From: Candidatus Spongiisociaceae bacterium
Lineage (GTDB): Bacteria > Actinomycetota > Acidimicrobiia > Spongiisociales > Spongiisociaceae
NCBI GenBank assembly: GCA_965262915.1
Contig: OZ253564.1
Coordinates: 1,120,001-1,184,000, forward strand
Length of the DNA stretch: 64,000 nucleotides
Direction: 5' to 3'
Shown here: piece by piece, positions 2,198-30,596 of the stretch
Layout of the letters: every line of letters starts with the position of its first letter
How positions within the stretch are numbered: position 1 is the first letter of the stretch
The notes under the pieces: generated by a model
Database searches by the model: none
Told to the model about the DNA's origin: nothing
What the model saw: the letters and a program-made list of their open reading frames with translations, nothing else
Made by a program: the position numbers and the translations under genes

Positions 2198-2826
2198 TCA
2201 GGCTTCGGTGGGAGTCCCGGCGTTCAGCCGGTGGTGACCGTCTGGCGTAGTCGGGGGTGATGTGGCCGTCGGCTAGGTCGGCCTGGACGGCTTGTGGGTC
2301 CGGTCGAGGGGGTTGCCATAGCCGCCTCCGCCGCCGGTGTGGCAGCGGACGGTGTCTCCTTGGCGGAGGAGCATGCGGGTGGTCTTGAGGCGGCGGACCT
2401 TTCGGGGGGTTGCGGAGTTGATGATGACTTCGGGGGTGCTCCGTCCTGGCCGCCGAAGAGGCCCCAGGCGGGGTTGGCTGAGCGCTCGAACCAGAGGCTC
2501 ATCCTGGTGTCGGTGGTCATCCGGTATTCTCGGATGATGCCGTTGCCTTCTCGCCATCGGCCGGGTCCGGCGGAGTCCTGGCGGTAGTCGTACTCGGTGA
2601 TGTGGGCGGGGAACTTGGATTCGAAGACTTCGATGGGCATGTCGTGGAAGTTGCCGGACAGGGTCCAGATCATGCCGTCCTCGCCGTCGCGGCCTTGTGG
2701 GGCGCCCCATCCGCCTACGTGGGGTCCGTTGCCGAGGAACAGTTCGCCCGTGCGGGGGCTGATGCCGGTGAACTGGAAGATCATGCCGTCGCCGTAGTGG
2801 GCGGCGGGGACGGTGTCGGCGAGGGC
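2198..2826 (-). pseudogene. Hydantoinase B/oxoprolinase 3' fragment, copy 1 (frameshifted)
   Basis: AAHYGDGMIFQFTG...MPIEVFESKFP...DSAGPG...GGGGYG, ends HHRLNAGTPTEA-stop; no 5' half. Confidence 0.88.
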
Positions 2827-3126
2827 TGTTGTCCTCGTTCACATCGGGATGTAGTCGACGATGCTTCCGGCGTCACATCTGCTGCGTCCTTGAGACACTT
2901 CGACGGATCTAGGACCGAGCGGAGTATGGTCAACTCGGTCTGAGGATCTGACCTAACACGTTTAATGTGTTGACGATCGTTGAGGGTGGCAGTGATCGAC
3001 ATAGGCTATTTGCCCTGGGCCAGTTTGATGAGCTCTCGCCACTCAGCCCGCAACCTGCACATAGTCAGAGCGGCCAAAGGTGTCGAGCTTGGTGGCCAGG
3101 TCATGCAGCTGGCCGGCTATTGGCCC

Positions 3127-4440
3127 TCAGAGGCTGAGGCTGTAGCCTCCGGGCGGATCTGCAGTGGGTGGGGGCCTGTCTGGTACTGGTCGGACTGGCC
3201 GTTCACGGAGCGTGCTGCCTTGTGGGGTGGCTAGGGAGCGTTCCAGGGAGGTGAGCAGTTCTATAACGGAGGGGGCTTCGAGGACGCGGTTGCGGGGGCT
3301 GCTGGAGGGTCGGAGCCGCAGGATACCGGCTTGGAGGAGTTGTGTGATAGCAGCTCGGACAGCTACCGGGGAACGTCCTACCAGTTGTGCTGCCTTATCG
3401 GGAGTCAAGAGGGGAACCCCGGGGAGGATTCCTACGAGCAGATCCAGGGCGGAGCCTTTTCGGTAGCGTCCCAGCTTCTGGTTCCACTCGTCGGTCAGTT
3501 GGTTGATCCGGTCGCCGTATTCCACCGCGTCGTCGCATGCCCTTCGGGTAGCGGCTGTGAATGTGCCCAGCCACGGCTGTAGGGCGGCGTCTCGTTGAGA
3601 GCTGCCGGCCGGGCCTTCGTGCCGAAAGTCCGTGAGCCCTTCAACGTAGGAGTCGGACCAGGTAGACAGGACCAGACTGATCGGCGGCACGAACCGGGGC
3701 GCCAGTCCGCGTCTTCGCAGCACGATGTGGATCAGTGCCCGACCGGCACGGCCGTTGCCGTCTCCGAAAGGGTGGACCGTCTCGAATTGGGCGTGAGCGA
3801 CCGCGGCTTGGGTGAGTGGACTGTGATAGTCGGTGTTCACATAGTCGGCGAGATCGCTCATCAACTCGGGCACCCGGTCTGGGGGAGGAGGCACATAGGC
3901 GGCGTTGCAAGGGTTGAAACTTCCTCCCCCAACCCAGCCTTGCTCTTGGCGCAACACTCCTCCCAGCTCCGGGTTGGGGGAGCGGCCCATCAGTAGCTTG
4001 TGGACTTCCAGAAGGCCATCGAGGGTGACCGGCCCTTGCTGAGCGGCCAGGTCTACTGCCTGGCGCATGGCGTCGATGTTGCCGACCACTTCCGTCGCGA
4101 TGCTGTCTGTGGCAGCCAAGCCTTTTGCTATCTGTTCCTCGGCCGCTAGCAGACGCCGGGGACCAACCCTGAGGCCCTCGATGGCCGACGAGCCCACCGA
4201 CTCTGCTCGCAGCAGGAACCGGCCCATACCGGCCAAACCGGGGTGCCGCACGTCGGAACGGTTCAGGTCCCGTACCGCCTCCTCGGCTTGACTGACAGAC
4301 GCTGCCAACGAACCGGGAATCAGCGGATCCCACCCGGCCAGTAGATCAGGCGAGTAAGGGTGATACCAACCGCCCATCCGATCCGACCGGGTAGGACCCT
4401 CAAACCGAGGCGCCCACCACATCCGCAGATACTCCGCCAC
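3127..4440 (-). CDS. Fic family protein
   Basis: Canonical Fic motif HPFGDGNGRAGR; likely GTG start at 4440. Confidence 0.92.
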   Translation of the reverse strand: MAEYLRMWWAPRFEGPTRSDRMGGWYHPYSPDLLAGWDPLIPGSLAASVSQAEEAVRDLNRSDVRHPGLAGMGRFLLRAESVGSSAIEGLRVGPRRLLAAEEQIAKGLAATDSIATEVVGNIDAMRQAVDLAAQQGPVTLDGLLEVHKLLMGRSPNPELGGVLRQEQGWVGGGSFNPCNAAYVPPPPDRVPELMSDLADYVNTDYHSPLTQAAVAHAQFETVHPFGDGNGRAGRALIHIVLRRRGLAPRFVPPISLVLSTWSDSYVEGLTDFRHEGPAGSSQRDAALQPWLGTFTAATRRACDDAVEYGDRINQLTDEWNQKLGRYRKGSALDLLVGILPGVPLLTPDKAAQLVGRSPVAVRAAITQLLQAGILRLRPSSSPRNRVLEAPSVIELLTSLERSLATPQGSTLRERPVRPVPDRPPPTADPPGGYSLSL

Positions 4441-4799
4441 TCGATCACTCCCTGGTTCGGGTAAGGCTAAGCAATAACCCAACCACCGCCACCCTCATAG
4501 CGACAGGATACCACGCAACCTGTTGCTAAGAGTCCCGGCCCGGCCGCCGTCCGGACAGGTAGACCCCAGCCTCGGGCTGCTAATGGGCATTGGTGGACGT
4601 AGCCGCCACCCCCCAGCGGATCATTCAGGTCAGAAACGAGTAAGCGACCGCAGCCCACGTTCGCGTCCCGACCTCTTGCTGCGAGCCGTTTACCTGGCGA
4701 CCACGATAACCGCAGGGGCCTGTCGATACGTAACAACCCGATCCTCCACGACGCTTGGAGCCGCTTTACCGAACCCTGGTCCTCGGTCGCTGAATGATC

Positions 4800-5170
4800 T
4801 GAGGCTGCGAACGCACCGTAGGACGCGTCGCCGGCACCGGTCGTGTCCACCGGTCGATGGACCGTCCGAACTGGGATGTGGGTCACGTCGGTACCTGTGG
4901 CGACAACGCACCCAACGTGGCGGAGCTTCACAGCGGCGAACCAAGCGCCGGCCGCGACGTAGTCCCGGGCCGCTCGCTCATGGTCCGGTCCGGCTAGGTG
5001 TTCGCTCTCCAGGCGCTGGGCACCAAAGCAGTGCAATCGGCTACGAGGTCGATGTAGGTATCCGGGTTGGTGGCAGCGTCGTCTGTGTGCGGGTCGAGGG
5101 TGATCATCGACCGGGCCTCGGCTGTGACTGCGACCCATCCGGCCTGGTATCGCACGGGTGGCCATGTACG
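4800..5170 (-). pseudogene. PfkB kinase fragment, degenerate duplicate of 12845-13726
   Basis: RTVHRPVDTTGAGDAS.GAFAA and flanking DNA closely match ~12980-13340; frameshifted, both ends missing. Confidence 0.85.
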
Positions 5171-5231
5171 CCGGTGGGCGAGCGGAGCAGCCTGCTTCCC
5201 CGGCTAGGTTTAGCCAGGGAGAACATCGATC

Positions 5232-6035
5232 ATGTCCGACAGCAGCATAAGCGAGTCTTACCGGAGGGATGGCTACTACTTCCCGATCCCCGTCCTTTCG
5301 GGCGATGAAGCCCGAGAGTGCCGCCGGCGCTTGGAGGCCTTCGAGGCCGAGCACCAAGGGTTGCCCGACAGATACCGCTTCAAGACTTACCTGGTGTGGA
5401 CCTGGCTCGATAGGCTGATTCGACATCCGCGGATCCTGGATGCTGTCGAAGCAGTCATCGGACCCGACATCTTGTGCTGGTCGACTGACTTCTTCATCAA
5501 GGAAGCACACGATCCGGGGTTCGTGTCATGGCACCAGGACTCGACCTACTGGGGGCTCGAACCTCCGGACGTGGTCACGGCTTGGCTGGGACTCACCGAC
5601 AGCACTGACGAGAACGGGTGTGTCCGCGTCGTGCCGGGCAGCCACCTGCAGGGCCAGGTTACGCATCACGACACTTTTGGAGAAGACAACCTGCTATCTC
5701 GAGGACAGGAAGTGATGGTGAAAGTCGACGAGAGCGAGGGCGTCGATCTCAGGCTGTCTGCCGGGGAAATCTCACTCCACCATGTCCTGGTAGTCCACGG
5801 ATCCCGGCCGAACCCATCATCGGACCGTCGCATCGGAGTCGCATTCCGCTACCTGCCCACCCATGTGCAGCAGACTGAGGGGGTCCGCGAGTCGGCCATG
5901 CTCGTGCGAGGAATCGACGAGTACGGGAACTTCGACCTCGAGCCCCGACCGCGGACCGACTTCGATGAGGCGGCGCTTTCGGCCCATGCCGATGCCATGG
6001 GGCGGTTCGAGAGATTCGGAGAAACATCGCTGTAG
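5232..6035 (+). CDS. Phytanoyl-CoA dioxygenase (PhyH) family Fe(II)/2OG dioxygenase
   Basis: WHQD motif, NGCVRVVPGSH, VHGSRPN..DRRIG; GGAG RBS. Confidence 0.92.
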   Translation: MSDSSISESYRRDGYYFPIPVLSGDEARECRRRLEAFEAEHQGLPDRYRFKTYLVWTWLDRLIRHPRILDAVEAVIGPDILCWSTDFFIKEAHDPGFVSWHQDSTYWGLEPPDVVTAWLGLTDSTDENGCVRVVPGSHLQGQVTHHDTFGEDNLLSRGQEVMVKVDESEGVDLRLSAGEISLHHVLVVHGSRPNPSSDRRIGVAFRYLPTHVQQTEGVRESAMLVRGIDEYGNFDLEPRPRTDFDEAALSAHADAMGRFERFGETSL

Positions 6036-6071: not shown

Positions 6072-6424
6072 TCCCAGGAACAGTTCGCCGGTGCGAGGGT
6101 TGATGCCGGTGGGCTGGAAGACCATGCCGTGGCCGTAGAGGGCGGGGGAGAGGGCCGAGCAGATAGGGTCGATCATCGGTCGAGGGGGGTCAAGTGGACC
6201 TGGCAGGCGGCGGGGGAGCGGGCATGGTGGATCGATCCGGGTTTGGTGAGTACTTCCCGGGGGCGGAAGGTGCCTCCGTTGACGGGTTGGCGGGAGTTGA
6301 ACAGGTACTTGAAGGCTAGGCGGCAGGCGGACAGAGTCTTTACGGCGCCGCAGTTGATGGGACCCTGGCCGGGTCCGTCGATCTCGGCGAGGCCGAAGGC
6401 CAGGCGCTCGCCCTCCACCGTGTT
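6072..6424 (-). pseudogene. Hydantoinase B internal fragment, copy 2
   Basis: VEGERLAFGLAEIDGPGQGPINCGAV..LSACRLAFKYLF...TGINPRTGELFL. Confidence 0.85.
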
Positions 6425-6485: not shown

Positions 6486-8465
6486 CTACAGACTGATGGA
6501 GTAGGTCGCTAATTGTTCTGGGTATTCGGATCGTGAGTATATGACTATTGTGTAGACGCCGCTGGTGGTGATGAACTGTCGGAGGTCGGCTTCGATGGTT
6601 ACGCTTCCATCCGAGTGGACGTCCCAGGTGTGAGCTACAACATCCTCTGGGTCCAGATCCGGATAATATGATCCGGGCGATGGTGGTATAAGTACTCGCA
6701 CGATCGGTTCTATATTCTCACAGTCATCAGTGAAGCCACCACCCACACAGTAGGCTTTGAGTCTGAAGATATCCTCCGGTCGCTTCGGAGTTGGTGGTGG
6801 GTCGTAGTAGATCGCTATCCCGCCTATCTCAATGCTGGCCTCGGGTCGTAGTGAAAGGCGTAGTAGCCCGCCGGTGAGGTCGGGCGCTGTTTCGTGGGTT
6901 AGCCGTGTGTATTCGAAGTGCTGAAAGTACGTAACATGGCTCTCAGTAAACGATATACCGATGTTGACGGTATCGTAGATAGGGTCAATGATCGTATCGC
7001 GATGCCCCCAATTCGCATGAGCATCGTCATACATCATGCCCCACTGAAGTGACTCGATCGCGCTGAGCACATCGATGTCTCCGCATACGACGGTCGGATC
7101 ATCACACCTTTCTGATCCTCTAGCCTGCCCCGCAGCGTTCTCAGCCATTACACCGATGCCACCTGCTTGCGTGTACAACATGTACGGCTTCAATCCATCC
7201 GATGTCCAGTGCCCTGTTAAGTACCCACTACGTACCGAGTCTTCTGCATGGGCCTGTGCAGCCTGGTTCGACCCGAGCCGGACAGGCGGTGAACCGTGTG
7301 ACTGACGATCCCGGTTTATGAGCTCAACGGCAAAGAGGCGAAGCTCCTCGAGCGTGGGGAACTCCGGCTCATCGAAGGATACAAGGCCGGTATCCGGCTG
7401 TAGATCAGCGGTGTCCAGGTTGATGAAGTATCTGCTTGCTGGAAGCTCAGAACCTGTCCAGACCACCACTTCATACACACCGGGTCCTGGGACCAATTCT
7501 GCGATAGACACAGCTATCGAGGTCATATGACTATCACTCGACCAGTATTCGGCCGTGATATCGACGTCCCGGAGAGTCAGCATCTGACTGCTGTCCGGTG
7601 GTCTGTGTATTGAGAGGACCTTGGTACGGGATAAGGTAGCCGTGGGGGAAGAAGGAGCCGGATAATAGTACAGATCGACACTTTCGATCTCGACTCCACT
7701 ATACGGGACCACTTCGAGACTCAGGACTCCACCTGACACCGACGGTTCCTTCAGATATGTCAGCTTCTGGTGCTCTAACTGAAAGACCACCACAAACGTG
7801 AAGTCTGTGTACGCAACTCCCACATGTAGAGTTTCCCAATCAGAGAACAGCGGACTCTCCCGCTCCTCAGGAAACGTCTCCGCCAAACGCGAATCCACAT
7901 ATTCCGACAGGTACGCCTCCGGGTCGGTTCTCGTACAGATCACCAGAGCAGACCGACACTGGGTGAGTTCAGCGGTGTCGAGATAGCCACGGATCGCGCC
8001 TGAGGACAAGATGGCTCCTCGGCCCCCGGTCGCTGTGTACACAACCTCGAGCGGTAGTCCATCCTGGGTGTAATCTGCCAGACGTAAGGCCTCAAGGGCC
8101 TGCTCAGCCACATACTGGGCGGCAACACCATCCCCGATCTCCAACGGGGCACGCCCCCGGTCGATCCGTTGCCGGTTGACACGGTCCACCGCCATAGCTC
8201 GAAGCGACGCGACCTCATCAGACGGAACAGTATCCACTCGGCCCAGTGAACCGTCCGCACCCTGGTCCGTACTCGGAGAGGCCGAGGCCGTGCCACCACG
8301 CGACGTTGACTCCTGGTCCCGAACAGGCTCACTAGGACCGTCGAAGTCGACAACCTGACCATCCTCACCACACGCCAAAACCAAGAAAACAGCCAGCACA
8401 GCACCCAGGCAAACCCGCCTACTAGACACCCCCAAACACCAATCCCCCGACGTTCTCCGTATCAT
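6486..8465 (-). CDS. Lipoprotein with two CAP/SCP-like domains
   Basis: Lipobox FLVLAC; ELINRDRQSHG..AAQAHAED..GHW..GHRDTIIDP.YDTVNIGI; degenerate N-terminal repeat of the same domain; start uncertain. Confidence 0.75.
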   Translation of the reverse strand: MIRRTSGDWCLGVSSRRVCLGAVLAVFLVLACGEDGQVVDFDGPSEPVRDQESTSRGGTASASPSTDQGADGSLGRVDTVPSDEVASLRAMAVDRVNRQRIDRGRAPLEIGDGVAAQYVAEQALEALRLADYTQDGLPLEVVYTATGGRGAILSSGAIRGYLDTAELTQCRSALVICTRTDPEAYLSEYVDSRLAETFPEERESPLFSDWETLHVGVAYTDFTFVVVFQLEHQKLTYLKEPSVSGGVLSLEVVPYSGVEIESVDLYYYPAPSSPTATLSRTKVLSIHRPPDSSQMLTLRDVDITAEYWSSDSHMTSIAVSIAELVPGPGVYEVVVWTGSELPASRYFINLDTADLQPDTGLVSFDEPEFPTLEELRLFAVELINRDRQSHGSPPVRLGSNQAAQAHAEDSVRSGYLTGHWTSDGLKPYMLYTQAGGIGVMAENAAGQARGSERCDDPTVVCGDIDVLSAIESLQWGMMYDDAHANWGHRDTIIDPIYDTVNIGISFTESHVTYFQHFEYTRLTHETAPDLTGGLLRLSLRPEASIEIGGIAIYYDPPPTPKRPEDIFRLKAYCVGGGFTDDCENIEPIVRVLIPPSPGSYYPDLDPEDVVAHTWDVHSDGSVTIEADLRQFITTSGVYTIVIYSRSEYPEQLATYSISL

Positions 8466-8659
8466 CGGCCCGGAAGGCGTCGGAGGGCTCGCGTGCCGGT
8501 CCTGGAAGAGGCGTCGCGGGTACCCGCCATGACAGCCTGCACGGTCTTGGGATGTCCTTCGTGGGCCACGCCGCTGGATCGTAGCTAGATTCGGGCTACC
8601 TACCTGCGGGGGCGGGGAGGGTGGGGGCGGGTCAACGACTCCCGCGATTGGTTCCACAC

Positions 8660-8970
8660 ATGAACGCCGTAGCAGCCTCCGCCGCCGGTGTAGCAGCGGG
8701 CGGTGTCGCCTTCGCCGGAGGGCGTGCGGTTGGTTTTGAGGCGGCGGGTCTCTGTGGGGTTCCGGGGTTGATGATGACTTCGGGCGGTGCGCCGGCCTGG
8801 CCGCCGAAGAGGTCCCAGGCGGGGTTGCCGGAGCGTTCGAACCAGAGGCTCATCTCGGTGTCGATGCTCATCCGGTAGTTGCGGATGATGTCGTTGCCTC
8901 CACGCCATCGGCCGGGGCCGGCGGAGTCCTGGCGGTAGGTGTCTCAGTGACGCGGACCGGGGAACTTGCG
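8660..8970 (-). pseudogene. Hydantoinase B 3' fragment, copy 3
   Basis: YRQDSAGPGRWRGG...DTEMSLWFERSGNPAWDLFGG...GGGGCYG. Confidence 0.85.
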
Positions 8971-9089: not shown

Positions 9090-10034
9090 TCAGAAGAGGG
9101 CGGCCTGTCCGGGGTGCGAACTCTCGTCGGGCTCGGATTGAGGGCTTTCGAGGATGTTCCGGAGTTGGGATGCGTCGGTGAGGGGGATCGCGCCCATGTC
9201 AGCGAGAGCCTCGTTTCCCGGACCTTCGCCAAGGCCTCGCCAGACAGCCACCCGGCAGTAGCGGCCCTTCATCGCCTCCGTCGCCCCTGACCACGTACCG
9301 CCCGAGCCCTTGTCGGCCGCTACCGCCACGGTTACATCCGAGAGGGCGTATATGAGCTTGTTCCGGCCCATCGTCGTGCCGACCGAGAACGGGGAGTCCG
9401 GTGCATATGGTGTACACATGACTGTCCGGCCCTCGTAAACGGCTCGGCGGACACCCGGGGACTTTAGGATGCGGGCGAGCGAGTGGGCCGGGGCGCCGAT
9501 CACGTTTCCTTCCGCCGTGAAAGCCGCGTTCATGGCCAGTTGATCCACCGCTCGGGCCTCACCTGAGATCAGCGGGACGCCGAGTGACGCCGCCTGCTTA
9601 CCGAGATCCGTCGCGACTCGGGCGCCTTCGTTGCTCACGTTGCGGCTTCCCACGACTCCGACGCCTCCTTCGTCGAGGAGTTCCAGTGCTCCGGCGGCGT
9701 GGAGTATCGGCGGTGCCTTGGGCCCGAGGCTCGCGCGAAGCCGCTGCGGATAGTGGTCGTCGAACGGTGTGAGGGTGGCTATCCCGGACTGGTCGAGCCG
9801 TTCCAGTTGGAAGGCCATCGTGGTAGCCCTCGCCAGCAGGGCGACCACCCGGTCCGCCATGTCCGCCATCAGCCCGGTGCCTACTAGATCGTTCTCGGTC
9901 ATCCCGAGAAGACCGCCGGGGTGGCCCATGTCGGTGACCAGCTTCCAGAATTGGCGAGCCGTGAGCGGACTTGTCCCATCGCTCGCTATCCGGCTCACCA
10001 GGAGGATCGTGGCCAGTGCGTCATCGCTCCTCAT
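9090..10034 (-). CDS. dprA: DNA-processing protein DprA/Smf family
   Basis: YPQRLR..APPILH, VGVVGSR, MGRNKLIYALS, GGTWSGA. Confidence 0.88.
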   Translation of the reverse strand: MRSDDALATILLVSRIASDGTSPLTARQFWKLVTDMGHPGGLLGMTENDLVGTGLMADMADRVVALLARATTMAFQLERLDQSGIATLTPFDDHYPQRLRASLGPKAPPILHAAGALELLDEGGVGVVGSRNVSNEGARVATDLGKQAASLGVPLISGEARAVDQLAMNAAFTAEGNVIGAPAHSLARILKSPGVRRAVYEGRTVMCTPYAPDSPFSVGTTMGRNKLIYALSDVTVAVAADKGSGGTWSGATEAMKGRYCRVAVWRGLGEGPGNEALADMGAIPLTDASQLRNILESPQSEPDESSHPGQAALF

Positions 10035-11520: not shown

Positions 11521-11707
11521 TGCGGGTCTCTGTGGGGGTTCCGGGGTTGATGATGGCTTCGGGCGGTGCTCCGGCTTGATCTCCGAAGAGGCCTCAGGCG
11601 GGGTTACCGGAGCGTTCGCACCACAGGCTCATTGCCGGTGTCGGTCATCTGGTATTCCCCGATGATGCCGTTGACTCCTCACATTGGCCGGCGGCGGAGT
11701 CTTGGCG
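11521..11707 (-). pseudogene. Hydantoinase B 3' fragment, copy 4 (most decayed)
   Basis: DNA matches the RQDSA...EYQMTDT.MSLW.ERSGNPA...IINPGTP segment of the other copies. Confidence 0.8.
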
Positions 11708-12820: not shown

Positions 12821-12844
12821 CGTCGACCTGGCTGGTCCAACTCC

Positions 12845-14226: not shown

Positions 14227-14408
14227 TTGTCCACGCTCTCTGCCAGGGATAGGGCGCACACGAACCGTGGGCTGGCGATCCCGCTGGTGACACGGCCACT
14301 CTCGATGCAACACCCGCTGCCGGGTTGCGACATCAACGCCTCGATGCCTCTATCCACAGCGCTCATGGATCGGTACTCTATGTAGGAATCCCAACGGATG
14401 GAGAGGCA

Positions 14409-18754: not shown

Positions 18755-18755
18755 G

Positions 18756-19649: not shown

Positions 19650-19652
19650 CTG

Positions 19653-20048: not shown

Positions 20049-20130
20049 TGCGCGGCGGTCTCGAGCACAGCGCATCTTGAGCCCGCCCTGAACCAACCCG
20101 ACCCGAGCCGATGTCTCTACCCACCCGAGG

Positions 20131-21282: not shown

Positions 21283-21510
21283 GTGTGTTCGGAAGACCCG
21301 TTTTAGACAATCAAGCTGGTCGTACGAGATTTCGTGGGATCGGGCGCCGGTTTTTTTGCGCAGTTGCAGAAGGTTTCGGGTGGCGACTGCCTGGAAGGTT
21401 TCGTCTCACACGTACCGTACCGGGACCTCGCATGACCACAGACGGAGAACACCGAGTTTCCTAGTAGATCCTTGCGTCTAACCAAGGAGGGTTCTTCGTC
21501 AAGCACCCGG

Positions 21511-22443: not shown

Positions 22444-22640
22444 TCCTGCGGCGCTTGGCCGGGCACCCCCGTAGGTCACGAAACCGTGGGCGACAAGTCC
22501 CGGGGGCTAAGACTCAGAGGTAGTCGTGACTTGAGAGGGCTGCGCTCTCAAGCGCAAGAATTTGCACACTACTGACGTATTACGAACCTTCTTGACCCAA
22601 GATGGATCGAAACCGCTCCTATACGGCTCGGAGGCCTCCT

Positions 22641-23912
22641 ATGCTGCTCGGGTTCCAGGTCACGAACCACCGCTCGTTCCTCGGACAAACGGACTTCTCG
22701 ATGATGGCCGTGGATAAGGATCGGTCGGCGACACGCTGCTTCGAGCGTCTCTCGGAACCGGTGCTGACCGTTTCTGGGATCTACGGCCCCAACGCTTCGG
22801 GGAAGTCTAATTTTCTATATGCCATTACATGGTTATCGAACGCTGTCAGGAGATCTCTTCGAGGCTGGGACGAGTTCATCCCCCGGGATCCCCACTTGAT
22901 AGGCGAGGGTCCGGCTAGGCCGTCGGTCTTCGATATGGCGATCGTTGTCGACGGGGTTGAGTATGAGTACCGGCTCGTGGTTGACGACTCAGCGGTGCTG
23001 TACGAAAGCCTTCATGGCTATCCCGAGCGGAGGAGACGAAGGTTGTTCGAGCGAGACAAGGACGAAATCGAGTTTCGACGCGGCTTGGGTGGTGCTCGTG
23101 GAGTAGACAGTGTCCTTACGTCGACCACGTTGGCGCTGTCCGCTGCCATGCGCTTCCGGATGCCCGATGTTGGCAGCGTAGGACGCGCTATCGCAGGAAT
23201 CCGTGCCGTCGGGATTAGATGGCCTGTGGCGGGTTTCAACCCCTACTTGGACTCGACACAGCGCCTGTTCGCTGGGGAAAGCGAAGGCCGTCAGTTGACC
23301 CTTGTCGACATGCCCACAGACCGAGACGTAGCCTTGGACTTGCTGCGCTGGGCCGATCCCGCAATCTCGGATGTGGAGTTTATCGAACGGGGCGAGAACG
23401 AGGACCAACCGGCTCGGGGTTCCGCCCGTCCGTCGCGTCGTCAGTTGCAGTTCGTTCGCCGAGTTGCCGATGCGGAGTACTCTCTGGGCTTCCGTGAGGA
23501 ATCTGCAGGGACGAAGACTTGGTTCCGACTATTGGGACCAGCTCTCGGAGCCCTTGGGAGAGGTCAGGTTCTGTTGTTTGACGAAATCGACGCAAGCCTC
23601 CATCCCCGGCTCTCTAGTCAGTTGATCCAGCTCTTCCAAGACCCCGCGTCCAATCCTCGCAATGCTCAACTGGTCTTCACGACTCACGATACGTCACTGC
23701 TCAACGTTTTGAATCGCGACGAGGTTTGGCTGACAGAGAAGAGATCCGACGGGTCATCGGAACTCGTCGCGCTTGCAGAGTATGGATCTGAGAAGATACG
23801 GAAGTCGTTGAATCTTGAGAGGGCCTATCTACAGGGTCGGTTCGGAGCTATTCCCGAACCCGACCAAATCGTGATCCGCCACGCCCTCGGGCTCGCTCTT
23901 GGAGAAAGGTGA
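22641..23912 (+). CDS. RloA-like AAA_21 ATPase
   Basis: IYGPNASGKSN, EESAGT, DEIDASLHP, QLVFTTHD, YLQGRFGAIP; GGAGG RBS. Confidence 0.9.
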   Translation: MLLGFQVTNHRSFLGQTDFSMMAVDKDRSATRCFERLSEPVLTVSGIYGPNASGKSNFLYAITWLSNAVRRSLRGWDEFIPRDPHLIGEGPARPSVFDMAIVVDGVEYEYRLVVDDSAVLYESLHGYPERRRRRLFERDKDEIEFRRGLGGARGVDSVLTSTTLALSAAMRFRMPDVGSVGRAIAGIRAVGIRWPVAGFNPYLDSTQRLFAGESEGRQLTLVDMPTDRDVALDLLRWADPAISDVEFIERGENEDQPARGSARPSRRQLQFVRRVADAEYSLGFREESAGTKTWFRLLGPALGALGRGQVLLFDEIDASLHPRLSSQLIQLFQDPASNPRNAQLVFTTHDTSLLNVLNRDEVWLTEKRSDGSSELVALAEYGSEKIRKSLNLERAYLQGRFGAIPEPDQIVIRHALGLALGER

Positions 23913-24310
23913 TGGCGAGATCTCGACAACGGGTACACAGGAGACGAAGACCTCGTAAAGTCGGCGTTCGTGTTCCACGAAAGACTTACCTCGTGTTCTG
24001 CGAGGGTGCGAGAACGGAGCCCGAATATATCAAAGCGCTCAAGCAAGAACCTGAGGTTCGTGCGCGTGCCTCCGTCCGGATCGGCAAGGACACAATCGGT
24101 ATCGCGCCTCCCTTGACCCTGGTTAGAGCGGCAGTCAAAGCCATCGATCGTGCCGAGGAGGAAAAGGCCGAAATCGATGAGGTTTGGTGCTTGTTCGATG
24201 TTGAGTGGCCCCACAATCACCCCAAACTGGCTCATCGCGTTTCAGTGGGGAGTGACGGTCGCGAGTAGGCCCCAGTTGGGTTTCCCGGCTCTTCGATGCT
24301 CCTATGGTTG

Positions 24311-25540
24311 TCAAATCGATGATGGGGCGGTTTGGTGGGTGTGCAGCCAGTTCTGGTATCGGGTGGCGAGGTGGTGGTTGTGGTCTCGGCCGTGTTCGAG
24401 TGCTGAGATGCGATTGGGGTGGGTTCCGACGGCTTGGGCGGTCTGGGTGAGGGTGATGCCGCGTTGTTGGCGTCGGGTGCGTAGGCGGGCGCAGTTCGGG
24501 GTTGGGTGCGGGTTGGTGAGGAGCCGGTAGATTTCTCGGGCGATGTGCCGCTTGAGGCAGCGGATGATCTCCTTTTTCTTCTTGCCCTCGGCCTTGCGTC
24601 GTGCCACGTAGGCTTTGGTGGCGGCGTCGGTGCGCATCCGGGTGGTAGCGATCCGCCATAGCGCGTTGTTGGCTTGGCGGTTGCCGCCCCGGTTGAGACG
24701 ATGCCGAAGGGTTCGTCCTGATGACGCCTGGACGGGGCTGGCGCCGCACAGCGCCGCGAAAGACCGTTCCGATTTCATTCGCTTGGGGTTGTCGCCGGCG
24801 GCGACCAACAACGCGGCGGCTGTGTCAGGACCGACACCTTCTGTGGCCAGCAGGGCCGGGTTGGCCTGGGCGCAGAGACGCCGGATCTCGGCTTCGAGTT
24901 GGGCGATCTCTACGTCGAGGGCCTGATACCGGCGGGCCAAATGCTGTAGGGCACGCTTCGCATACGCGGTGGTGGTGTGGTCTGTGCCGGGTCGGAACCG
25001 GGCACAGGTTTTGACCCGTGCTTTGAGATTCATGCCCTTTAGCTGGTGTTTTAGCGGCTCGGGAGCTGTTACGACCAGCGCATGTATCTGGTTAGCGGCC
25101 TGGGTGCGGGCCTTGACCGCGGAGCGGCGCACCACCCACAGCATCCGTATGCACTCGACCGGGCCCACACCGGACTTGGGAACCGCGGTTGCTTCGCCCG
25201 AGGCAGCTGCCCGAGCTGCCGCCTCGGCGTCGACGCTGTCGGTCTTGCCGCCCTTCTGGCGGCGTAGTTGGCGGTTGGGGCGGTTGACCTCCACCACCTC
25301 GATGTTCATCTCGGTCAGGTAACGGGCCAGGCCGGCGCCGTAACTACCCGTTCCTTCCACCCCAACCCGAACCAACTGTCCCCGCGACTCGAACCAGGTG
25401 ACCATTCGCCGATAACCGGATTCCTCCACCGCGAAAGACTCCGATCCCAGTACCCGCCCGACGCCATCCACCACCGCTGCTACGTGGACGTCCCGATGGG
25501 TGTCAACCCCACCGTAGATAATCTGGTCTGCTTCTCCCAT
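24311..25540 (-). CDS. IS110 transposase/recombinase with C-terminal HTH extension
   Basis: GGVDTH, GVEGTGSYG, KTDSVDA (DEDD), ASSG, HRLNRGGNRQAN, CLKRHIARE. Confidence 0.95.
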   Translation of the reverse strand: MGEADQIIYGGVDTHRDVHVAAVVDGVGRVLGSESFAVEESGYRRMVTWFESRGQLVRVGVEGTGSYGAGLARYLTEMNIEVVEVNRPNRQLRRQKGGKTDSVDAEAAARAAASGEATAVPKSGVGPVECIRMLWVVRRSAVKARTQAANQIHALVVTAPEPLKHQLKGMNLKARVKTCARFRPGTDHTTTAYAKRALQHLARRYQALDVEIAQLEAEIRRLCAQANPALLATEGVGPDTAAALLVAAGDNPKRMKSERSFAALCGASPVQASSGRTLRHRLNRGGNRQANNALWRIATTRMRTDAATKAYVARRKAEGKKKKEIIRCLKRHIAREIYRLLTNPHPTPNCARLRTRRQQRGITLTQTAQAVGTHPNRISALEHGRDHNHHLATRYQNWLHTHQTAPSSI

Positions 25541-25760: not shown

Positions 25761-25775
25761 AATTATGAGTGGATT

Positions 25776-27080
25776 TCAGTGGGGAGTGACCGATGCGAGG
25801 AGGTCCCAGTTGGGTTTCCCGGCGTAGAGAAGGGCGCGGATTCGGTAGTTCGCGAAGTTGGGTAACCCGAACGCTGCTCGTTTGATCCGCTTTATGAGGT
25901 TGTTGAGGGCTTCGGTGGCATCTGTTGGTTACCTTCGAGATGTGCCAGTTGGTGATCTGGGGGGTCCAGCGGGCGATGGTGCGACCCAGCTTGTTGATCT
26001 CGGGTGGGCAGGATTCGTCCTGGAGGTCGTCCGCGAGCCCGACGGTGTACCGGAGAGCAAGGACCGGACTTTCGATCCCGTAGATGCCCCGTACCGTTTC
26101 GGTCGCGTGCCAGGCTGTGCGTACCTCCCCGTGGGGGTCACCGGCGTCCAAAAGACCACGCAGCCGTGTTTGACCGCGGTCGCTGATCCTCTCATGCGCG
26201 GCGGTGAGGAGGCGGCGTATCCGATACAGCGGGTCATCCTTGCGGCCTCTGTGTCCCAGGGTTTCGTTTTGGACTCTTCGTCGTAGGTCGTCGAGACGCT
26301 GGTTGGCGAGGCGGCTGACACCGAACGGGTCCGCTACCCCGGGGGCGTGGGGCAGCACCCTGTCATACGCCTTCCGATACGAACCGGACATGACCCGACA
26401 CCGCCCAGCGGATAGCCTCACACCATTCGGTGGGCTGCGCCCGGAACCAGGCTGCGGCGCTTTCTGCCGTTCTACCACCGACTATGTCGAACCGGCTGGT
26501 GGCCTCCCACGTCGACGACAGAGGTGCACCAGACCTTGGTACGCCACCGGCCTTTCCGCCAGAACAACGCTTCTTGTCGATGCCCACAGCTTGGACCTCG
26601 CCTATCCGGTCGGTGTCGGCCCCCAGGAGGGCTTCGCCCCAGCGGCCGACCTCGTTGTTCACCGTATGCCACCCACAACCAAGCTCTGCGGCGACCTCGT
26701 CGACCGGGCGACCCCGCCCACCCACCCCGATGGTCACCCACCTCGCCGCTCGGGATGTCAACAACGCCCGTTGGGGACCAATCGTGGGGTCTTGCTCGAT
26801 GAACGATCTGAGCGCACAGTCGGTGTTCGGACATGTCCAACGGCGTTTCCGCCACCGCAGCCGAACCGGACGGCCGAACGCCGGTAAATCCACCAACACC
26901 ACCGTCCGCTCACCCTTGGACCACACCGGGCCACCACAGGCCTCACAGGACGGCCGGGGCTTGCGGGACCCGATCACCACCCCAAGCGGTGCACCCTCGC
27001 CCGAGTCGTTGATCCCTACCAGGTCAACGTCGCCTAGGCCTACCAACTTCTCGCACATGCGCGCAGGGATCAGCTTCCAC
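25776..27080 (-). pseudogene. ISL3 transposase, multiply frameshifted
   Basis: Zn finger CEACG..VDLPAFG..RWTCP; VADPF; HRGRKDDPLYRIRR; RIRALLYAGKPNW. Confidence 0.9.
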
Positions 27081-27565
27081 AGGGGTCCTCCTGCCTCGGA
27101 TGTCGCTTATCAACAGCCGATTATGGAGGACCCCTCCTCACTTCTGGTGGATTCCGATCCCCCCTGGCAGATCCCCTACTCCCCACCCATTCGCGAAGAG
27201 CCCCCAAACTCGACCAGACCGTGGCTCTCGCCAAGAGGAAGAATGTACAGATTGCTGTATCGAATCCAAGCTTCGAGTTATGGCTCGCTCTTCATTTTCG
27301 AGACTGTCCAGGATGGCTAGACACCAAAGCCGCGGAGAGGCTACGCAAGAGTCATGACGGCAGTACAGACAAGGGCGTGAATGGGGCAATGTACATGCGG
27401 ATGCGACTGATCGGGCTCTTGGTCTAGCAGAGAAGCACGAGAAACAGGGAACACGGTTTCCACACGACAACCCATCATCAGGTATGTACTTCCTCCTCCA
27501 AGCAGTCGACCCCACCATTACGTGAAACCCTGAGCTTCCCGGAGAGTGGCTTGGTTTGGGCTCGG

Positions 27566-28201
27566 TCAGTCTTCGGCCAGGTCTTGGGAACTCAGTCGGT
27601 GGTGGCGTCTAGCGTAGTTGGGGGAGATGTGGCTGTCGGCTAGGACGGCTTTGGGGTCGCGTTCTAGGGGATTGCCGTATCCGCCGCCGCCGGTGTAGCA
27701 GCGGACGGTGTCTCCTTTGCGGAGGGGCATGCGGTTGGTCTTGAGGCGGCGGATCTCGTTGGGGGTTCCGGGGTTGATGATCACTTCGGGGGGTGCTCCG
27801 CCTTGGCCGGCGAAGAGGCCCCAGGCGGGGTTGGCGGAGCGTTCGAACAGAGGCTCATCTCGCTGTCGGTGGTCATCTGGTATTCGCGGATGATGCCGTT
27901 TCCTCCCCGCCATTGGCCAGGTCCGGCCGGTAGCTGTAGTCGGTGGTCCGGGCGGGGAATTTGGATTCGAACACTTCGATGGGCATGTCGTGGAAATTGC
28001 CGGACAGGGTCCAGATCATGCCGTTCTCCCCGTCGCGGCCTTGTAATGCTCCCCATCCGCCTACGTGGGGCTCGTTGTCGAGGAACAGTTCGTTGGTGCG
28101 GGGGTTGATGCCCGTGAACTGGAAGACCATGCCGTCGCCGTAGTGGGCGGCGGGGACGGTGTCGGGCAGGGCGGGGGAGAGGGCCGAGCAGATCAGGTCG
28201 A
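27566..28201 (-). pseudogene. Hydantoinase B 3' fragment, copy 6
   Basis: DLICSALSPALPDTVPAAHYGDG ... RRHHRLSSQDLAED-stop. Confidence 0.9.
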
Positions 28202-28342
28202 ATCATCCAACACACGGAACAATCTCATCAGACGAATCAAACGAGCAGCCTTCGGGTTCCGCAACCTCGCGAATTATCGAATCCGGGCAATCCTCTGCGT
28301 CGGGAACCTCAACAGGGATCTGCTGGCGGCCGTCACTCTCGA
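28202..28342 (+). mobile_element. ISL3 transposase C-terminal remnant
   Basis: NNLIRRIKRAAFGFRNLANYRIRAIL..G..NRDLLAAVT. Confidence 0.8.
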
Positions 28343-28547: not shown

Positions 28548-29189
28548 CTATGGGCGACCGAACGTGTCAAAACCGGGGGATGATTCACGGTTGGCGCGAA
28601 GGGCTTCCACGTCGGCCAGATCTTGCAAGCGGCCAGCAGCCAGCTTGTTGTGTTCCAGGTCTTCCAAGCCGATGAAGGGAACCGCCAGCGAGTCCAGCCG
28701 TATCTCGACTCGCCGCTCCCAGCACCCCTCGAAGTCGACTCCGGCGATGCTGGTCAAGATGTCGATCCGGTTCGGGGGATACCCTAGTTGGACCACATGG
28801 CCCTCGACAGCGAAGTCCTCCGCCGACAGTCCGAGTGATCCGAAGCCGAACTCGTCCAACACCGCGGCTGTCCGGGCGGCGTTCTCGGGATCTACCCAAA
28901 CCCAGATGTCCAGATCCTTGGTTAAGCGGGGATGGCCGTGCGCTGCCACCGCGTATCCACCGACCACTAGGAAACGCACTCCGTGCTCGGCGCACAGCGA
29001 GACGAAATCGTGCATTTCCTTTCCCAGCCGCATCAGCCCCCCGTGGTCGCTGTCCGGACCGTAGTAATACCCTTGTAGCTCCCGAACATGAGCGACCCGC
29101 TCCCCCGGGGGGCGAGACAGCCAGAATCCGGCATCAGGGTCGGGATCGCCCAGCCGGATGGTGGTCGCTACCTTCGCAATCCCAGCCAT
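28548..29189 (-). CDS. Minimal nucleotidyltransferase fused to a small upstream partner domain
   Basis: VVGGYAVAAHGHPRLTKDLD and NKLAAGRLQDLAD; N-terminal FWLSRPPGERV segment. Confidence 0.8.
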   Translation of the reverse strand: MAGIAKVATTIRLGDPDPDAGFWLSRPPGERVAHVRELQGYYYGPDSDHGGLMRLGKEMHDFVSLCAEHGVRFLVVGGYAVAAHGHPRLTKDLDIWVWVDPENAARTAAVLDEFGFGSLGLSAEDFAVEGHVVQLGYPPNRIDILTSIAGVDFEGCWERRVEIRLDSLAVPFIGLEDLEHNKLAAGRLQDLADVEALRANRESSPGFDTFGRP

Positions 29190-29393
29190 GCGAACACCGT
29201 TTCCCCGTTCCGAACTCCGCCATGGTACCAGCAGACGGGTATCTCCAAGGGGTGACGGCCGGTTGGCTGCAGGATGGGTACGGCCCAGTCAGGCGGTACG
29301 AGTGGGTGTGCTCGTGTGATCGCCACTTCACCTGATCCGGGGGTCTGCGCATTGCCGATTGGTGATGAGGAGTGTGTGACCATAATGGCGGGG

Positions 29394-29560
29394 TGACGAG
29401 TTCGGCATCTCCTCGACGGAACGCGTGGTGTCGGACGGGGATTTCGGGAGAGAGTGTCTGCGGCTCATTGAGGGGTGGAGGGCTCTGGAACGGTGATAGT
29501 TGTTACCAAGCACCGCCGGCCGGTCGTGAGGGTGGGACCATTCCGCGGGGAGGCGCCCAA
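29394..29560 (+). pseudogene. Phd/YefM antitoxin remnant
   Basis: ERVVSDGDFGRECLRLI / frameshift / GTVIVVTKHRRPVVRVGP. Confidence 0.6.
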
Positions 29561-29601
29561 GCTGGTCGGATCCTCACAGCCCCGCGAGAGGACAGACAGG
29601 G

Positions 29602-30596
29602 TCAGTCTTCGGTGAGGTTTTCGGAGCTCAGTTGATAATGGCGTCTGGCGTAGTCGGGGGAGATGTGGCCGTCGGCGGTCGGCTAGGACGGCCTGGGGGT
29701 CGCGTTCGAAGGGGGTCTCCGTAGCCACCTCCGCCGCCGGTGTAGCAGCGGACGGTGTCTCCTTTGCGGAGGGGCGTGCGGTTGGTCTTTAGGCGGCGGG
29801 TTTCTCTGGGGGTTCCGGGGTTGATGATTACTTCGGGGGGTGCTCCGTCCTTTCCGCCGTAGAGGCCCCAGGCGGGGTTGCCGGAGCGTTCGAATCAGAG
29901 GCTCATCTCGGTGTCGGTGGTCATCTGGTATTCCCTGATGATGCCGTTGCCTCCCCGCCATTGGCCGGGTCCGGCGGAGTCCTGGCGGTAGCTGTAGTCG
30001 GTGATCCGGGCGGGGAACTTGGACTCGAACACTTCGATGGGCATGTCGTGGAAGTTGCCGGACAGGGTCCAGATCATGCCGTCCTCCCCGTCGCGGCCTA
30101 GGGAGGGTCCCCATCCCCCCACGTGGGGTTCGTTGTCGAGGAACAGTCCGTTGGTGCGGGGGTTGATGCCGGTGAACTGGAAGATCATCCCGTCGCCGTA
30201 GTGGGCGGCCGGAACCGTATCGGGCAAGGCCGGGGAGAGAGCTAAACAGATCAGGTCGATCATCAGGCCCAGGGGGGTGAAGTAGAACTGGCAGGCGGCG
30301 GGGGAACGGGCGCCGAGTATCGACCCGGGTCGGGTTCGCACCTCCAGGGGCCGGAAGGTGCCTCCGTTGACGGGATGGTGTGAGTTGAAGAGGTATTTGA
30401 AGGCCAGGCGGCAGGCCGACAGTGTCTGGACGGCTCCACAGTTGATGGAATCCTGGCCCGGGCCGTCGGTGTCGCTGAGGTTGAAGATCAGGCGTTCTCC
30501 TTCAACGGTGATCTTCACGCGTATCCGGACGGGATCGTCTCCTACTCCGTCGGAGTCCAGGAAGCCTTCGGCGGTGTAGACCCCGTCGGGGATTGC
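29602..30596 (-). pseudogene. Hydantoinase B 3' fragment, copy 7 (longest; internal stop and frameshifts)
   Basis: AIPDGVYTAEGFLDSDG ... RRHYQLSSENLTED-stop; TGA replaces Trp at 29895. Confidence 0.9.

What the first reader, a model, noticed from the sequence alone, without database searches (positions are those of the whole stretch)
2198..30596. Seven co-oriented hydantoinase-B 3' fragments punctuate a 28-kb cargo array: candidate integrase-free gene-capture platform
Seen: fragments of the same gene lie at ~2198-2826, 6072-6424, 8660-8970, 11521-11707, 21511-22443, 27566-28201 and 29602-30596. All are on the minus strand, none is intact, none has the 5' half, and they are distinct alleles (C-termini LNAGTPTEA, LNAEDPIND, LSSQDLAED, LSSENLTED). 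Unrelated 1.4-10 kb gene blocks sit between them, and no integrase is in the window. Known: this layout recalls integron cassette arrays and Rhs/CdiA orphan modules, but a metabolic gene tail is not a repeat unit I recognise. Inference: the gene's 3' end acts as a recurrent recombination or landing pad through which new cargo is stacked.
Basis: partly seen in the sequence, partly recalled or inferred. Interest (0 to 1): 0.88.

Follow-up and report, generated by a model that had tools for sequence, protein, structure and literature searches.

The report
Decayed hyuB tails mark a defence-island hotspot
A sponge-symbiont bacterium carries seven same-direction, broken copies of the end of one metabolic gene between blocks of anti-phage and other accessory genes; they look like scars left each time new DNA was recombined in beside that gene without a dedicated integrase.

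Summary
Seven hyuB (PF02538) pseudogene pieces lie on the minus strand at 2160-30598, and there are none elsewhere in the 5.05-Mb genome. Contigs from three other runs reproduce junction-spanning stretches with 0-2 differences.

The genome is an Acidimicrobiia sponge symbiont (Ca. Spongiisociaceae). Relatives keep an intact orthologous hyuB followed by the same kind of co-oriented tails. Across 34 fragment hits, none covers the first 595 bp of the gene and 17 reach its 3' end.

No tyrosine or serine recombinase lies in the arrays of five genomes. The cargo includes SoFic, PsyrA, PDC-S01 and AbiLi/AbiLii, a sugar/nucleoside uptake cluster, and IS110 and ISL3 elements.

The first tail is sister to its own genome's gene in G006 and G021. 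The G005 and G006 genes are 97% identical until about position 1470, then 82%, and unrelated after the stop.

Best reading: a mobile-element-poor accessory and defence hotspot. New DNA entered by host recombination at the hyuB 3' end, single-crossover style, each time duplicating the tail. IS insertions and microhomology deletions followed.

However, most synteny breakpoints are not at tails, nine relatives have unshared DNA downstream of hyuB, seven of them without tails, and the array is fixed within the species.

The parts
171..1931 (+). CHAD/CYTH-domain gene, the conserved far flank of the island
   Evidence: Pfam CHAD 5.5e-61 and CYTH 3e-9. Orthologous DNA lies at the far end of the G005 array (91.6% identity) and 7 kb downstream of hyuB in G022 (84.7%).
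2160..2826 (-). F1: hyuB tail, gene positions 1049-1664, plus 40 bp of native downstream sequence
   Evidence: The 40-bp downstream stretch is shared with F7 and with the G006 gene and its first tail.
3130..4482 (-). Fic-domain gene, SoFic-like defence candidate
   Evidence: Pfam Fic 1.3e-19. PADLOC SoFic 3.9e-64.
4470..5510 (-). ORF holding a PfkB-kinase remnant; 4804-5158 is an 88% copy of 12978-13333
5232..6035 (+). PhyH-family dioxygenase, a block shared with four relatives
   Evidence: Pfam PhyH 1.2e-29. 90-92% DNA identity to G001, G005, G006 and G021.
6076..6422 (-). F2: internal hyuB piece, positions 761-1144. Its 3' 82 bp repeat the 5' end of F1 at 85% identity.
6489..8657 (-). 723-aa ORF with no Pfam or PADLOC family. 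It is a homologue of the gene directly upstream of intact hyuB in G022.
   Evidence: No family found. 68% DNA identity over 1745 bp to L017 7556-9295.
8662..8968 (-). F3: internal hyuB piece, positions 1260-1571
9093..10034 (-). DprA/SLOG-like gene matching PsyrA. It is an orphan here; G006 has PsyrT plus PsyrA.
   Evidence: Pfam DNA_processg_A 7e-30. PADLOC PsyrA 7.3e-78. In G006, PsyrT 2.7e-265 and PsyrA 2.8e-80.
10209..11435 (-). AAA_14/DUF4143 ATPase matching the PDC-S01 defence candidate. The block 10181-11504 is shared with G005, G006 and G021.
   Evidence: Pfam hits. PADLOC PDC-S01 4.5e-108. 88-91% DNA identity.
11522..11707 (-). F4: internal hyuB piece, positions 1294-1497. It shares its 5' junction with the first tail of G021.
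11729..21282 (.). 9.6-kb metabolic cargo: phosphodiesterase, PfkB kinase, DUF3830, solute-binding protein, nucleoside hydrolase, two ABC permeases, RidA and a SIS-domain protein
   Evidence: Pfam hits.
21509..22445 (-). F5: hyuB tail, positions 745-1680
22602..24268 (+). AbiLi-like AAA_21 ATPase (22602-23912) plus a short AbiLii-like ORF (23909-24268)
   Evidence: Pfam AAA_21 2.7e-33. PADLOC AbiLi 1.4e-83. AbiLii 9.2e-12, matching only profile positions 18-52 of 170.
24314..25540 (-). IS110-family DEDD transposase
   Evidence: Pfam DEDD_Tnp_IS110 1.2e-23 and Transposase_20 1.7e-19. At least 9 related copies in the genome.
25771..27202 (.). ISL3-family insertion sequence, about 1.43 kb
   Evidence: Pfam DDE_Tnp_ISL3. 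Ends mapped against other copies. 36 other copies align over at least 1225 bp.
27564..28207 (-). F6: hyuB tail, positions 1008-1679
28218..28338 (.). 121-bp inverted fragment of the ISL3 end, abutting the 5' break of F6
28551..29189 (-). Weak nucleotidyltransferase-like ORF (DUF6036). It has a paralogous copy outside the window at genome 1113116-1113672.
   Evidence: Pfam E-value 9e-4, below the curated cutoff. Repeat found.
29562..30598 (-). F7: remnant of the resident hyuB gene, positions 682-1685, plus 40 bp of native downstream sequence. The 5' 681 bp and the upstream DNA are deleted.
   Evidence: The adjoining flank is orthologous to DNA 15-19 kb upstream of hyuB in G005 and G006, in the same relative orientation.
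30627..32475 (+). Conserved near flank: a 346-aa ORF with no Pfam family, and a short-chain dehydrogenase
   Evidence: Pfam adh_short hits. 85-87% DNA identity to all five relatives searched.

Best explanation
The 28-kb stretch is an accessory and anti-phage defence island at a hotspot just downstream of one hyuB orthologue, in a lineage of sponge-symbiotic Acidimicrobiia.

The hyuB pieces are scars, not a designed repeat. My inference is that new DNA entered several times by host-encoded recombination. A DNA circle carrying the 3' part of hyuB plus cargo recombined once (Campbell-type) with the resident gene. That circle could have been excised from a relative's array, or formed by end-joining of an imported fragment.

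This event leaves an intact gene, then the new cargo, then a 5'-truncated copy of the tail, then the older content. Repeating it stacks co-oriented tails, with the oldest furthest from the gene.

Once present, the tails recombine with the gene (gene conversion, cargo replacement). The array then decays through IS insertion and microhomology-mediated deletion.

In this genome a later deletion removed the first 681 bp of the resident gene (F7), so all copies are now dead and the array is frozen.

Shown: the anatomy, the polarity, the absence of recombinases, the mosaic genes, and the defence cargo.
Inferred: the circular intermediate and the single crossover.
For: 1. Polarity. All 23 fragment hits in five genomes and all 11 in metagenome contigs are co-oriented with the gene or with each other. 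None of the 34 covers gene positions below 596. Seventeen of the 34 reach position 1660 or beyond.
2. In relatives the intact gene always sits at the 5' end of the array. In G000, F7 occupies that place and its flank is syntenic with relatives.
3. No PF00589 or PF00239 hit lies in the arrays of G000, G005, G006, G021 or G022. No motif is shared at the seven 5' junctions.
4. Tails derive from the resident lineage. G006_f1 is sister to its own gene (support 99/93) and G021_f1 to its own gene (97/82). A single origin for the G000 tails is not excluded.
5. Tails grow less like the gene with distance from it. In G021, f1, f2 and f3 are 95.1%, 87.9% and 80.3% identical to their own gene. The best match of f4 to any gene is 81.3%, and of f5 72.5%.
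6. Recombination occurs inside the tail. The G005 and G006 genes are 97% identical up to about 1466, about 82% from about 1488, and unrelated after the stop, with different proximal cargo. In G021 the gene and f1 are 97.2% identical, while the orthologous f1 copies of G021 and G001 are 90.9% identical, which suggests gene conversion.
7. F2 (ending at 1144) and F1 (starting at 1049) overlap by 82-96 bp. They flank a 3.25-kb insert, as expected after a single-crossover insertion.
8. The cargo between gene and first tail in G021 is not duplicated after the tail, so plain tandem duplication does not explain it.
9. Ku is encoded in all five genomes searched, so end-joining that could circularise DNA is plausible.
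10. Published work describes hotspots that lack mobile-element genes and show frequent homologous recombination in the flanking core genes (PMC5635113, passages read).
Against: - No circle, excision product or cassette presence/absence variant was observed. The joints have short sides (22-32 letters). They are explained by other hyuB copies in the samples.
- Most synteny block ends are not at tails.
- Nine of 31 family loci have a first 3 kb downstream of hyuB shared with no other locus. Seven of them carry no tail.
- The similarity gradient is not monotonic in G000. Identity to F7 is 86.6% for F6, 88.8% for F5, 83.4% for F4, 86.5% for F3, 75.8% for F2 and 85.6% for F1.
- Several boundaries were clearly made by other processes. 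An IS fragment abuts F6. Breaks recur at gene position about 1406, next to a short internal direct repeat.
- A single crossover with a circle and an unequal sister-chromatid exchange give the same product, so structure alone cannot separate them.
Confidence: 0.5

Rival explanations
1. Illegitimate or homology-facilitated illegitimate recombination, together with segmental duplication and deletion, built the array. Pieces of relatives' hyuB loci were spliced in at random sites, anchored by homology elsewhere in the island. The tails are passive debris and play no part in integration.
For: - Junctions are sharp, idiosyncratic and share no motif.
- Most block ends are away from tails.
- Cargo fragments are duplicated too: PfkB in G000, and DprA-like and DUF4143 pieces in G006.
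- Breaks recur at microhomology near position 1406.
- Ku is present.
- The [723-aa gene + F2] piece carries the gene that lies upstream of hyuB in G022.
Against: - Random splicing does not predict that 0 of 34 fragments carry the first 595 bp while 17 of 34 keep the 3' end.
- It does not predict that the intact gene always heads the array.
- It does not predict the decline in similarity with distance from the gene seen in G021.
- The mosaic G005 and G006 genes show true homologous crossovers in the tail.
Confidence: 0.27
2. The array is a decayed tandem accretion of site-specific integrative elements (IME/CIME type). These would target the hyuB 3' end and carry a replacement tail. Their integrases have been lost, or act in trans from elsewhere in the genome.
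For: - The layout matches known accretion at gene 3' ends: intact target gene, co-oriented 3' repeats, unrelated cargo between them. Examples are Dehalococcoides ssrA islands (PMC3146451, passages) and CIME accretion (PMC5704250, passages).
- G000 has 31 PF00589 hits elsewhere in the genome.
Against: - No tyrosine or serine recombinase lies in any of the five arrays. By contrast, 16 of the ssrA islands in the Dehalococcoides paper keep an integration module.
- Repeat lengths run from about 40 to 1000 bp, with 5' ends spread over 596-1576, rather than a fixed short att core.
- There is no shared motif at junctions.
- No relative of the gene was found on viral contigs.
Confidence: 0.13
3. The array is an assembly artefact: strain variants of one locus were chained together in a metagenome assembly.
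For: The genome is a metagenome-assembled single contig with an estimated 5.87% contamination.
Against: - Contigs of three runs from other studies span the junctions with 0-2 differences. Examples are X3 8834-11755 and 6351-8843, X6 4945-6543 and 1500-2656, and X8 8834-11869.
- The 10-kb stretch 2000-11999 is held at 0.96-0.99 of its sampled words in six runs from three studies (P3, P4, P5), besides the possible source run.
- Independent assemblies of relatives show the same kind of array.
Confidence: 0.02

Closest known systems
Hotspots of horizontal transfer that lack mobile-element genes and diversify by homologous recombination in flanking core genes (Oliveira et al. 2017, PMC5635113); core defence hotspots of Pseudomonas aeruginosa (Johnson et al. 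2023, PMC10250203)
   Same: Variable accessory and defence content sits next to a conserved core gene. There is no integrase. There is a recombination signal in the flanking gene.
   Different: Those models use double crossovers, which leave no scar. Here each of several events left a 5'-truncated copy of the flanking gene, which points to single-crossover or duplicative insertion. IS elements are present.
Tandem accretion of integrative elements at the 3' end of a target gene (ICESt1/CIME at fda; Dehalococcoides ssrA genomic islands, PMC3146451; review PMC5704250)
   Same: An intact target gene is followed by co-oriented repeats of its 3' end that separate unrelated cargo. Some units lack integration genes.
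   Different: Known cases have a fixed short repeat (20 bp for ssrA) and integrases in many units. Here the repeats run from about 40 to 1000 bp with scattered 5' ends, and five arrays hold no recombinase.
Campbell-type (insertion-duplication) integration of circular DNA by homologous recombination, as with non-replicating plasmids (recalled from general knowledge; no paper read here)
   Same: It predicts exactly gene, then insert, then truncated copy of the homology segment, all in direct orientation.
   Different: It is known mainly as a laboratory tool or for plasmid integration. To my knowledge, a natural serial stack at one chromosomal gene, shared across genera, has not been described. 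My two searches listed no such case among the 15 and 10 papers shown, whose titles and abstract openings were all I read; they are not exhaustive.
Integron cassette arrays
   Same: Promoter-less cargo units are stacked in one orientation next to a fixed site, and toxin-antitoxin and defence genes are among the cargo.
   Different: There is no IntI. The tails are gene fragments of variable length, not attC-type sites. Cargo genes lie on both strands.

Membership tests
Site-specific tandem accretion (IME/CIME, ssrA-island type) | A site-specific recombinase gene in at least some units of the array | tested here: not met
   No PF00589 or PF00239 hit lies inside the arrays of G000, G005, G006, G021 or G022. 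Pfam scans of 58 ORFs in and beside the arrays of G000, G001, G005, G006, G021 and G022 found only IS transposases.
Site-specific tandem accretion (IME/CIME, ssrA-island type) | A uniform short direct repeat (att core) at every unit boundary | tested here: not met
   Fragment lengths run from about 40 to 1000 bp. The 5' ends spread over gene positions 596-1576. The seven 5' junctions share no motif.
Site-specific tandem accretion (IME/CIME, ssrA-island type) | The target gene is kept intact, with displaced 3' ends distal to it and co-oriented | tested here: met
   An intact gene heads the arrays in G001, G005, G006, G021 and L070. All 34 fragment hits are co-oriented.
Integron | An IntI tyrosine recombinase next to attI | tested here: not met
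   No PF00589 hit in the window. The nearest is at genome position 1239774.
Integron | attC hairpin sites bounding each cassette | not tested
   No attC model was run. The repeats found are hyuB coding sequence.
Mobile-element-poor recombination hotspot / core defence hotspot | Variable gene content at a fixed position next to conserved core genes | tested here: met
   Of 31 family loci, 13 share the first 3 kb downstream of hyuB with 9 or more other loci, 9 with no other locus, and 9 with only 1-4. The CHAD flank and the SDR flank are conserved.
Mobile-element-poor recombination hotspot / core defence hotspot | Homologous recombination signal in the flanking core gene | tested here: met
   Identity between the G005 and G006 genes drops from 97% to 82% at about position 1470-1490. 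In G021 the gene and f1 are 97.2% identical, against 90.9% between the orthologous f1 copies.
Mobile-element-poor recombination hotspot / core defence hotspot | Defence systems among the cargo | tested here: met
   PADLOC hits: SoFic, PsyrA, PDC-S01, AbiLi and AbiLii in G000; PsyrT plus PsyrA in G006; PDC-M33A-C in G021. Function was not tested.
Campbell-type homologous integration | A circular intermediate carrying a segment of the target gene | not testable with these tools
   Only contigs could be laid. No raw long reads were available.
Campbell-type homologous integration | The insert is flanked by direct copies of the homology segment | tested here: met
   F2 and F1 overlap by 82-96 bp around a 3.25-kb insert. 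Gene/first-tail pairs in G006 and G021 share gene positions 1240-1678 and 1293-1663.

The most novel reading that the evidence does not exclude
The hyuB tails work as portable homology arms. Recombination between any two tails loops out a circle of [cargo + one tail]. That circle can re-enter any genome of the family at hyuB, or at another tail, using only RecA, with Ku end-joining forming first-time circles. This would be a self-propagating, integrase-free counterpart of an integron for defence and toxin-antitoxin genes, shared among genera of sponge symbionts. The following are consistent with it:
- shared cassettes (DUF4143/PDC-S01, PhyH, PsyrA) in different neighbourhoods;
- the swapped block order in G005 and G006;
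- the mosaic gene tails.
Probability: 0.22. Interest if true: 0.8.

Novelty: new variant of a known kind. Interest (0 to 1): 0.55.

Why it matters
Many horizontal-transfer and defence hotspots have no recognisable mobile-element genes, and how they are filled is an open question. The usual proposal, double crossover in the flanking core genes, leaves no trace.

Here the flanking gene kept a visible record: a series of 5'-truncated tails. This argues that some insertions were additive single-crossover or duplicative events. It also offers a datable stack of events in an uncultured symbiont lineage.

If the tails also mobilise cassettes, that would be a host-recombination route to defence-gene sharing without an integrase.

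If they are only scars, the locus is still a useful natural example. It also warns that repeated gene tails do not by themselves imply a dedicated capture system.

Tried and rejected
- Parent gene in the genome: not found. None of the 14 intact paralogues matched F7 in blastn.
- Genome-wide scatter of fragments: rejected.
- Uniqueness of the array. A local-repeat scan of the whole genome gave 59 repeat families with 3 or more members. The only other long all-direct array of comparable similarity (genome 1661576-1689801) is a 3-kb element with a weak DDE-transposase match, plus its fragments, around an SNF2/PLD helicase and an Eco57I-like methylase. It is not a metabolic-gene tail.
- Plain tandem duplication: rejected for the youngest G021 event, because the cargo is not repeated after the tail.
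- Tails as regular cassette borders: only weak enrichment of block ends near tails.
- A preferred 5' boundary at gene positions 1231-1296. Several of these are the same junction inherited by descent, and the remaining excess was noticed after the fact.
- Recurrent breaks at about position 1406: explained by a short internal direct repeat and microhomology.
- Read joints F1-to-F2 and F1-to-F3, and the 'goes back' joints: short sides and in-register hyuB homology. I read them as other hyuB copies or other organisms, not as excision.
- Parts of the window without X2 cover: no conclusion drawn.
- Viral contigs: no relative of the gene.
- Literature: a search for the taxon name found no paper.
- Supplementary files of the four papers read were not opened. 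They could hold hotspot lists that bear on the claim that scarred hotspots are undescribed.

Full report
**What is there.** The window is G000:C1:1120001-1184000, part of a 5.05-Mb single-contig genome. Translation of the stated intervals shows hyuB-like reading frames broken by stops and shifts, with the quoted C-termini. Self-blastn finds seven mutually similar stretches, all in direct orientation and 76-89% identical.

An nhmmer profile built from 33 intact family genes places them on the 1662-bp gene as follows:

| Fragment | Gene positions |
|---|---|
| F7 | 682-1685 |
| F6 | 1008-1679 |
| F5 | 745-1680 |
| F4 | 1294-1497 |
| F3 | 1260-1571 |
| F2 | 761-1144 |
| F1 | 1049-1664 |

So four fragments keep the stop codon and three are internal pieces. 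A whole-genome PF02538 search gives 14 full-length paralogues elsewhere and 9 partial hits, all at 1122309-1150599 on the minus strand. None of the paralogues matched F7 in blastn.

**It is not an artefact.** The stretch 2000-11999 is held at 0.96-0.99 of its sampled words by six runs from three studies (P3, P4, P5), besides the possible source run. Contigs of X3, X6 and X8 span the junctions with 0-2 differences. Examples are X3 2790-4852, 6351-8843 and 8834-11755; X6 1500-2656 and 4945-6543; and X8 8834-11869. A strain 2-6% diverged over the laid pieces that differ (one piece is letter-identical), X2, is colinear at 2589-4514 and 6341-7049. The array is therefore real and fixed within the species.

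**Organism and context.** Record titles of related loci name Acidimicrobiia, Candidatus Spongiisociaceae, which are metagenome-assembled genomes from sponges. G000 is rich in insertion sequences: 36 other ISL3 copies align over at least 1225 bp, and there are at least 9 IS110 copies.

Cargo between the fragments:
- a SoFic-like Fic gene;
- a PhyH dioxygenase;
- a 723-aa ORF of no known family;
- an orphan PsyrA;
- a DUF4143 ATPase matching the PDC-S01 defence candidate;
- a 9.6-kb sugar/nucleoside uptake and catabolism cluster;
- AbiLi plus a short AbiLii-like ORF;
- an IS110 and an ISL3 element.

Relatives carry PsyrT plus PsyrA, PIN, Phd and DUF433 genes, PDC-M33A-C, and IS4/IS5 transposases at the same place. 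This is an accessory and defence island.

**Relatives.** A DNA search of 40 relatives found matches in 21 of 24 genomes of the same family. In G001, G005, G006 and G021 an intact-length match is followed downstream by shorter co-oriented matches.
- nhmmer finds 23 fragment hits in five genomes, all on the gene's strand.
- Metagenome contigs add 11 more. L070 has a gene plus five tails, L079 has four tails, and L071 and L082 have one each. All are co-oriented.
- None of the 34 hits covers gene positions below 596, and 17 reach position 1660 or beyond.
- Of 34 genome-contig loci with an intact orthologue, only L024/L025, L027, L030 and L031 carry extra hyuB fragments within 10 kb downstream.
- Of 31 loci with enough downstream sequence, 13 share the first 3 kb with 9 or more other loci, 9 with no other locus, and 9 with only 1-4.

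So the site is a hotspot in part of the family, and tails accompany only some of the variation.

**Polarity in G000.** Homology with every relative's gene stops at 30596-30598. The adjoining flank 30627-32475 is orthologous to DNA 15-19 kb upstream of hyuB in G005 and G006, in the same relative orientation. The CHAD gene at 171-1931 is the far flank, as in G005 and G022. F7 is therefore the remnant of the resident gene. Its first 681 bp were lost in a deletion, and the array runs from it to the CHAD gene.

**No dedicated recombinase.** Six-frame searches for PF00589 and PF00239 in G000, G005, G006, G021 and G022 give no hit inside any array. Pfam scans of array ORFs found only IS transposases. 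The seven 5' junctions are sharp and share no motif. F1 and F7 keep 40 bp of native downstream sequence, while F5 and F6 diverge about 5 nt after the stop.

**Evidence on mechanism.**
1. The first tail is sister to its own genome's gene in G006 (support 99/93) and in G021 (97/82). The G000 tails sit in an unresolved cluster, and a single origin is not excluded. The tails are therefore copies from the resident lineage, not imports from diverse donors.
2. In G021, identity to the gene falls with distance: 95.1%, 87.9% and 80.3% for f1-f3, and best matches to any gene of 81.3% and 72.5% for f4 and f5. In G000 the trend is imperfect.
3. The G005 and G006 genes are 97.2% and 95.7% identical over positions 1-680 and 680-1290, but 86.3% over 1293-1663. 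The break lies at about 1466-1488, and the DNA after the stop is unrelated. Their proximal cargo also differs, and two cargo blocks are in swapped order.
4. In G021 the gene and f1 are 97.2% identical over 357 bp. Yet f1 and its cargo are shared with G001, and the two f1 copies are 90.9% identical. This suggests gene conversion.
5. F2 and F1 overlap by 82-96 bp around a 3.25-kb insert.
6. The cargo before G021 f1 is not repeated after it.
7. Ku is present in all five genomes searched.

Together these fit additive insertion by a single homologous crossover at the hyuB 3' end, followed by recombination among the copies.

**Evidence against a neat cassette system.**
- Block ends lie near tails only slightly more often than expected: 4 of 16 against 1.6, and 5 of 14 against 2.2. 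Other pairs show no excess.
- Cargo pieces are duplicated as well.
- An internal ISL3 fragment abuts F6.
- Five breaks fall at gene positions 1405-1411. They lie beside a short direct repeat inside the gene, which points to microhomology-mediated deletion.
- No circle or excision product was seen. The joints are explained by other hyuB copies.

**Comparison with known systems.** The layout resembles tandem accretion at gene 3' ends (PMC3146451 and PMC5704250, passages read). It fails two defining tests for that class: there is no integrase, and there is no fixed att core. It fits the class of hotspots that lack mobile-element genes and recombine in flanking core genes (PMC5635113 and PMC10250203, passages read). 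It differs from them in leaving serial scars. Campbell-type integration is recalled from general knowledge. My searches listed no natural serial stack of this kind among the 25 papers shown, of which I read titles and abstract openings only; they are not exhaustive.

**Verdict.** This is a new variant of a known kind, of moderate interest.

Noticed in passing
window 9093-10034; L012 5630-8691: G000 keeps only PsyrA. G006 has the full PsyrT (RecQ-like helicase plus phosphoribosyltransferase) and PsyrA pair in the same island, so the G000 copy is an orphan half of a two-gene system.
   Followed up: partly
window 22602-25540: AbiLi is followed by a 119-aa ORF that matches only positions 18-52 of the 170-position AbiLii profile. 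An IS110 transposase gene starts 46 bp further on. The system may have been cut by the IS.
   Followed up: partly
window 6489-8657; L017 7223-9319: A 723-aa ORF with no Pfam or PADLOC family is a homologue (68% DNA identity) of the gene directly upstream of intact hyuB in G022. It may be a functional partner of this hyuB orthologue.
   Followed up: no
L066 3577-L067 11802 (G000 1661576-1689801): A second all-direct array: two 84%-identical copies of a 3-kb two-ORF element with a weak DDE-transposase match, plus five short fragments of it. They surround an SNF2/PLD helicase and an Eco57I-like methyltransferase.
   Followed up: partly
G000 2916082-2948218 (outside the window): Five direct copies of a unit of about 165 bp, 80-94% identical, spread over 32 kb. 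Their nature was not examined.
   Followed up: no
window 28502-29572; L069 3116-4490: The cargo next to F7 (a DUF6036-like ORF and 216 bp downstream of F7) has a 76-84% identical direct copy 5.5-7 kb left of the window start. An ISL3 copy lies between the two.
   Followed up: no
hyuB gene positions about 1396-1406 and 1560-1572 (e.g. window F3, F5, F7): The gene contains a short G+C-rich direct repeat. Five fragment boundaries in G005, G006, G021 and L070 fall at the first copy. One is a clean deletion between the two copies.
   Followed up: partly
G021:C1 45461-61123 and G021:C2 9567-26186: The same hyuB array appears on both contigs of G021, near contig ends. This probably reflects overlapping contig ends in that assembly.
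   Followed up: no
whole genome G000: The genome is 1-2 Mb larger than its relatives. It carries 36 other near-full ISL3 copies and 31 tyrosine-recombinase hits, against 3-6 in the four relatives searched.
   Followed up: partly
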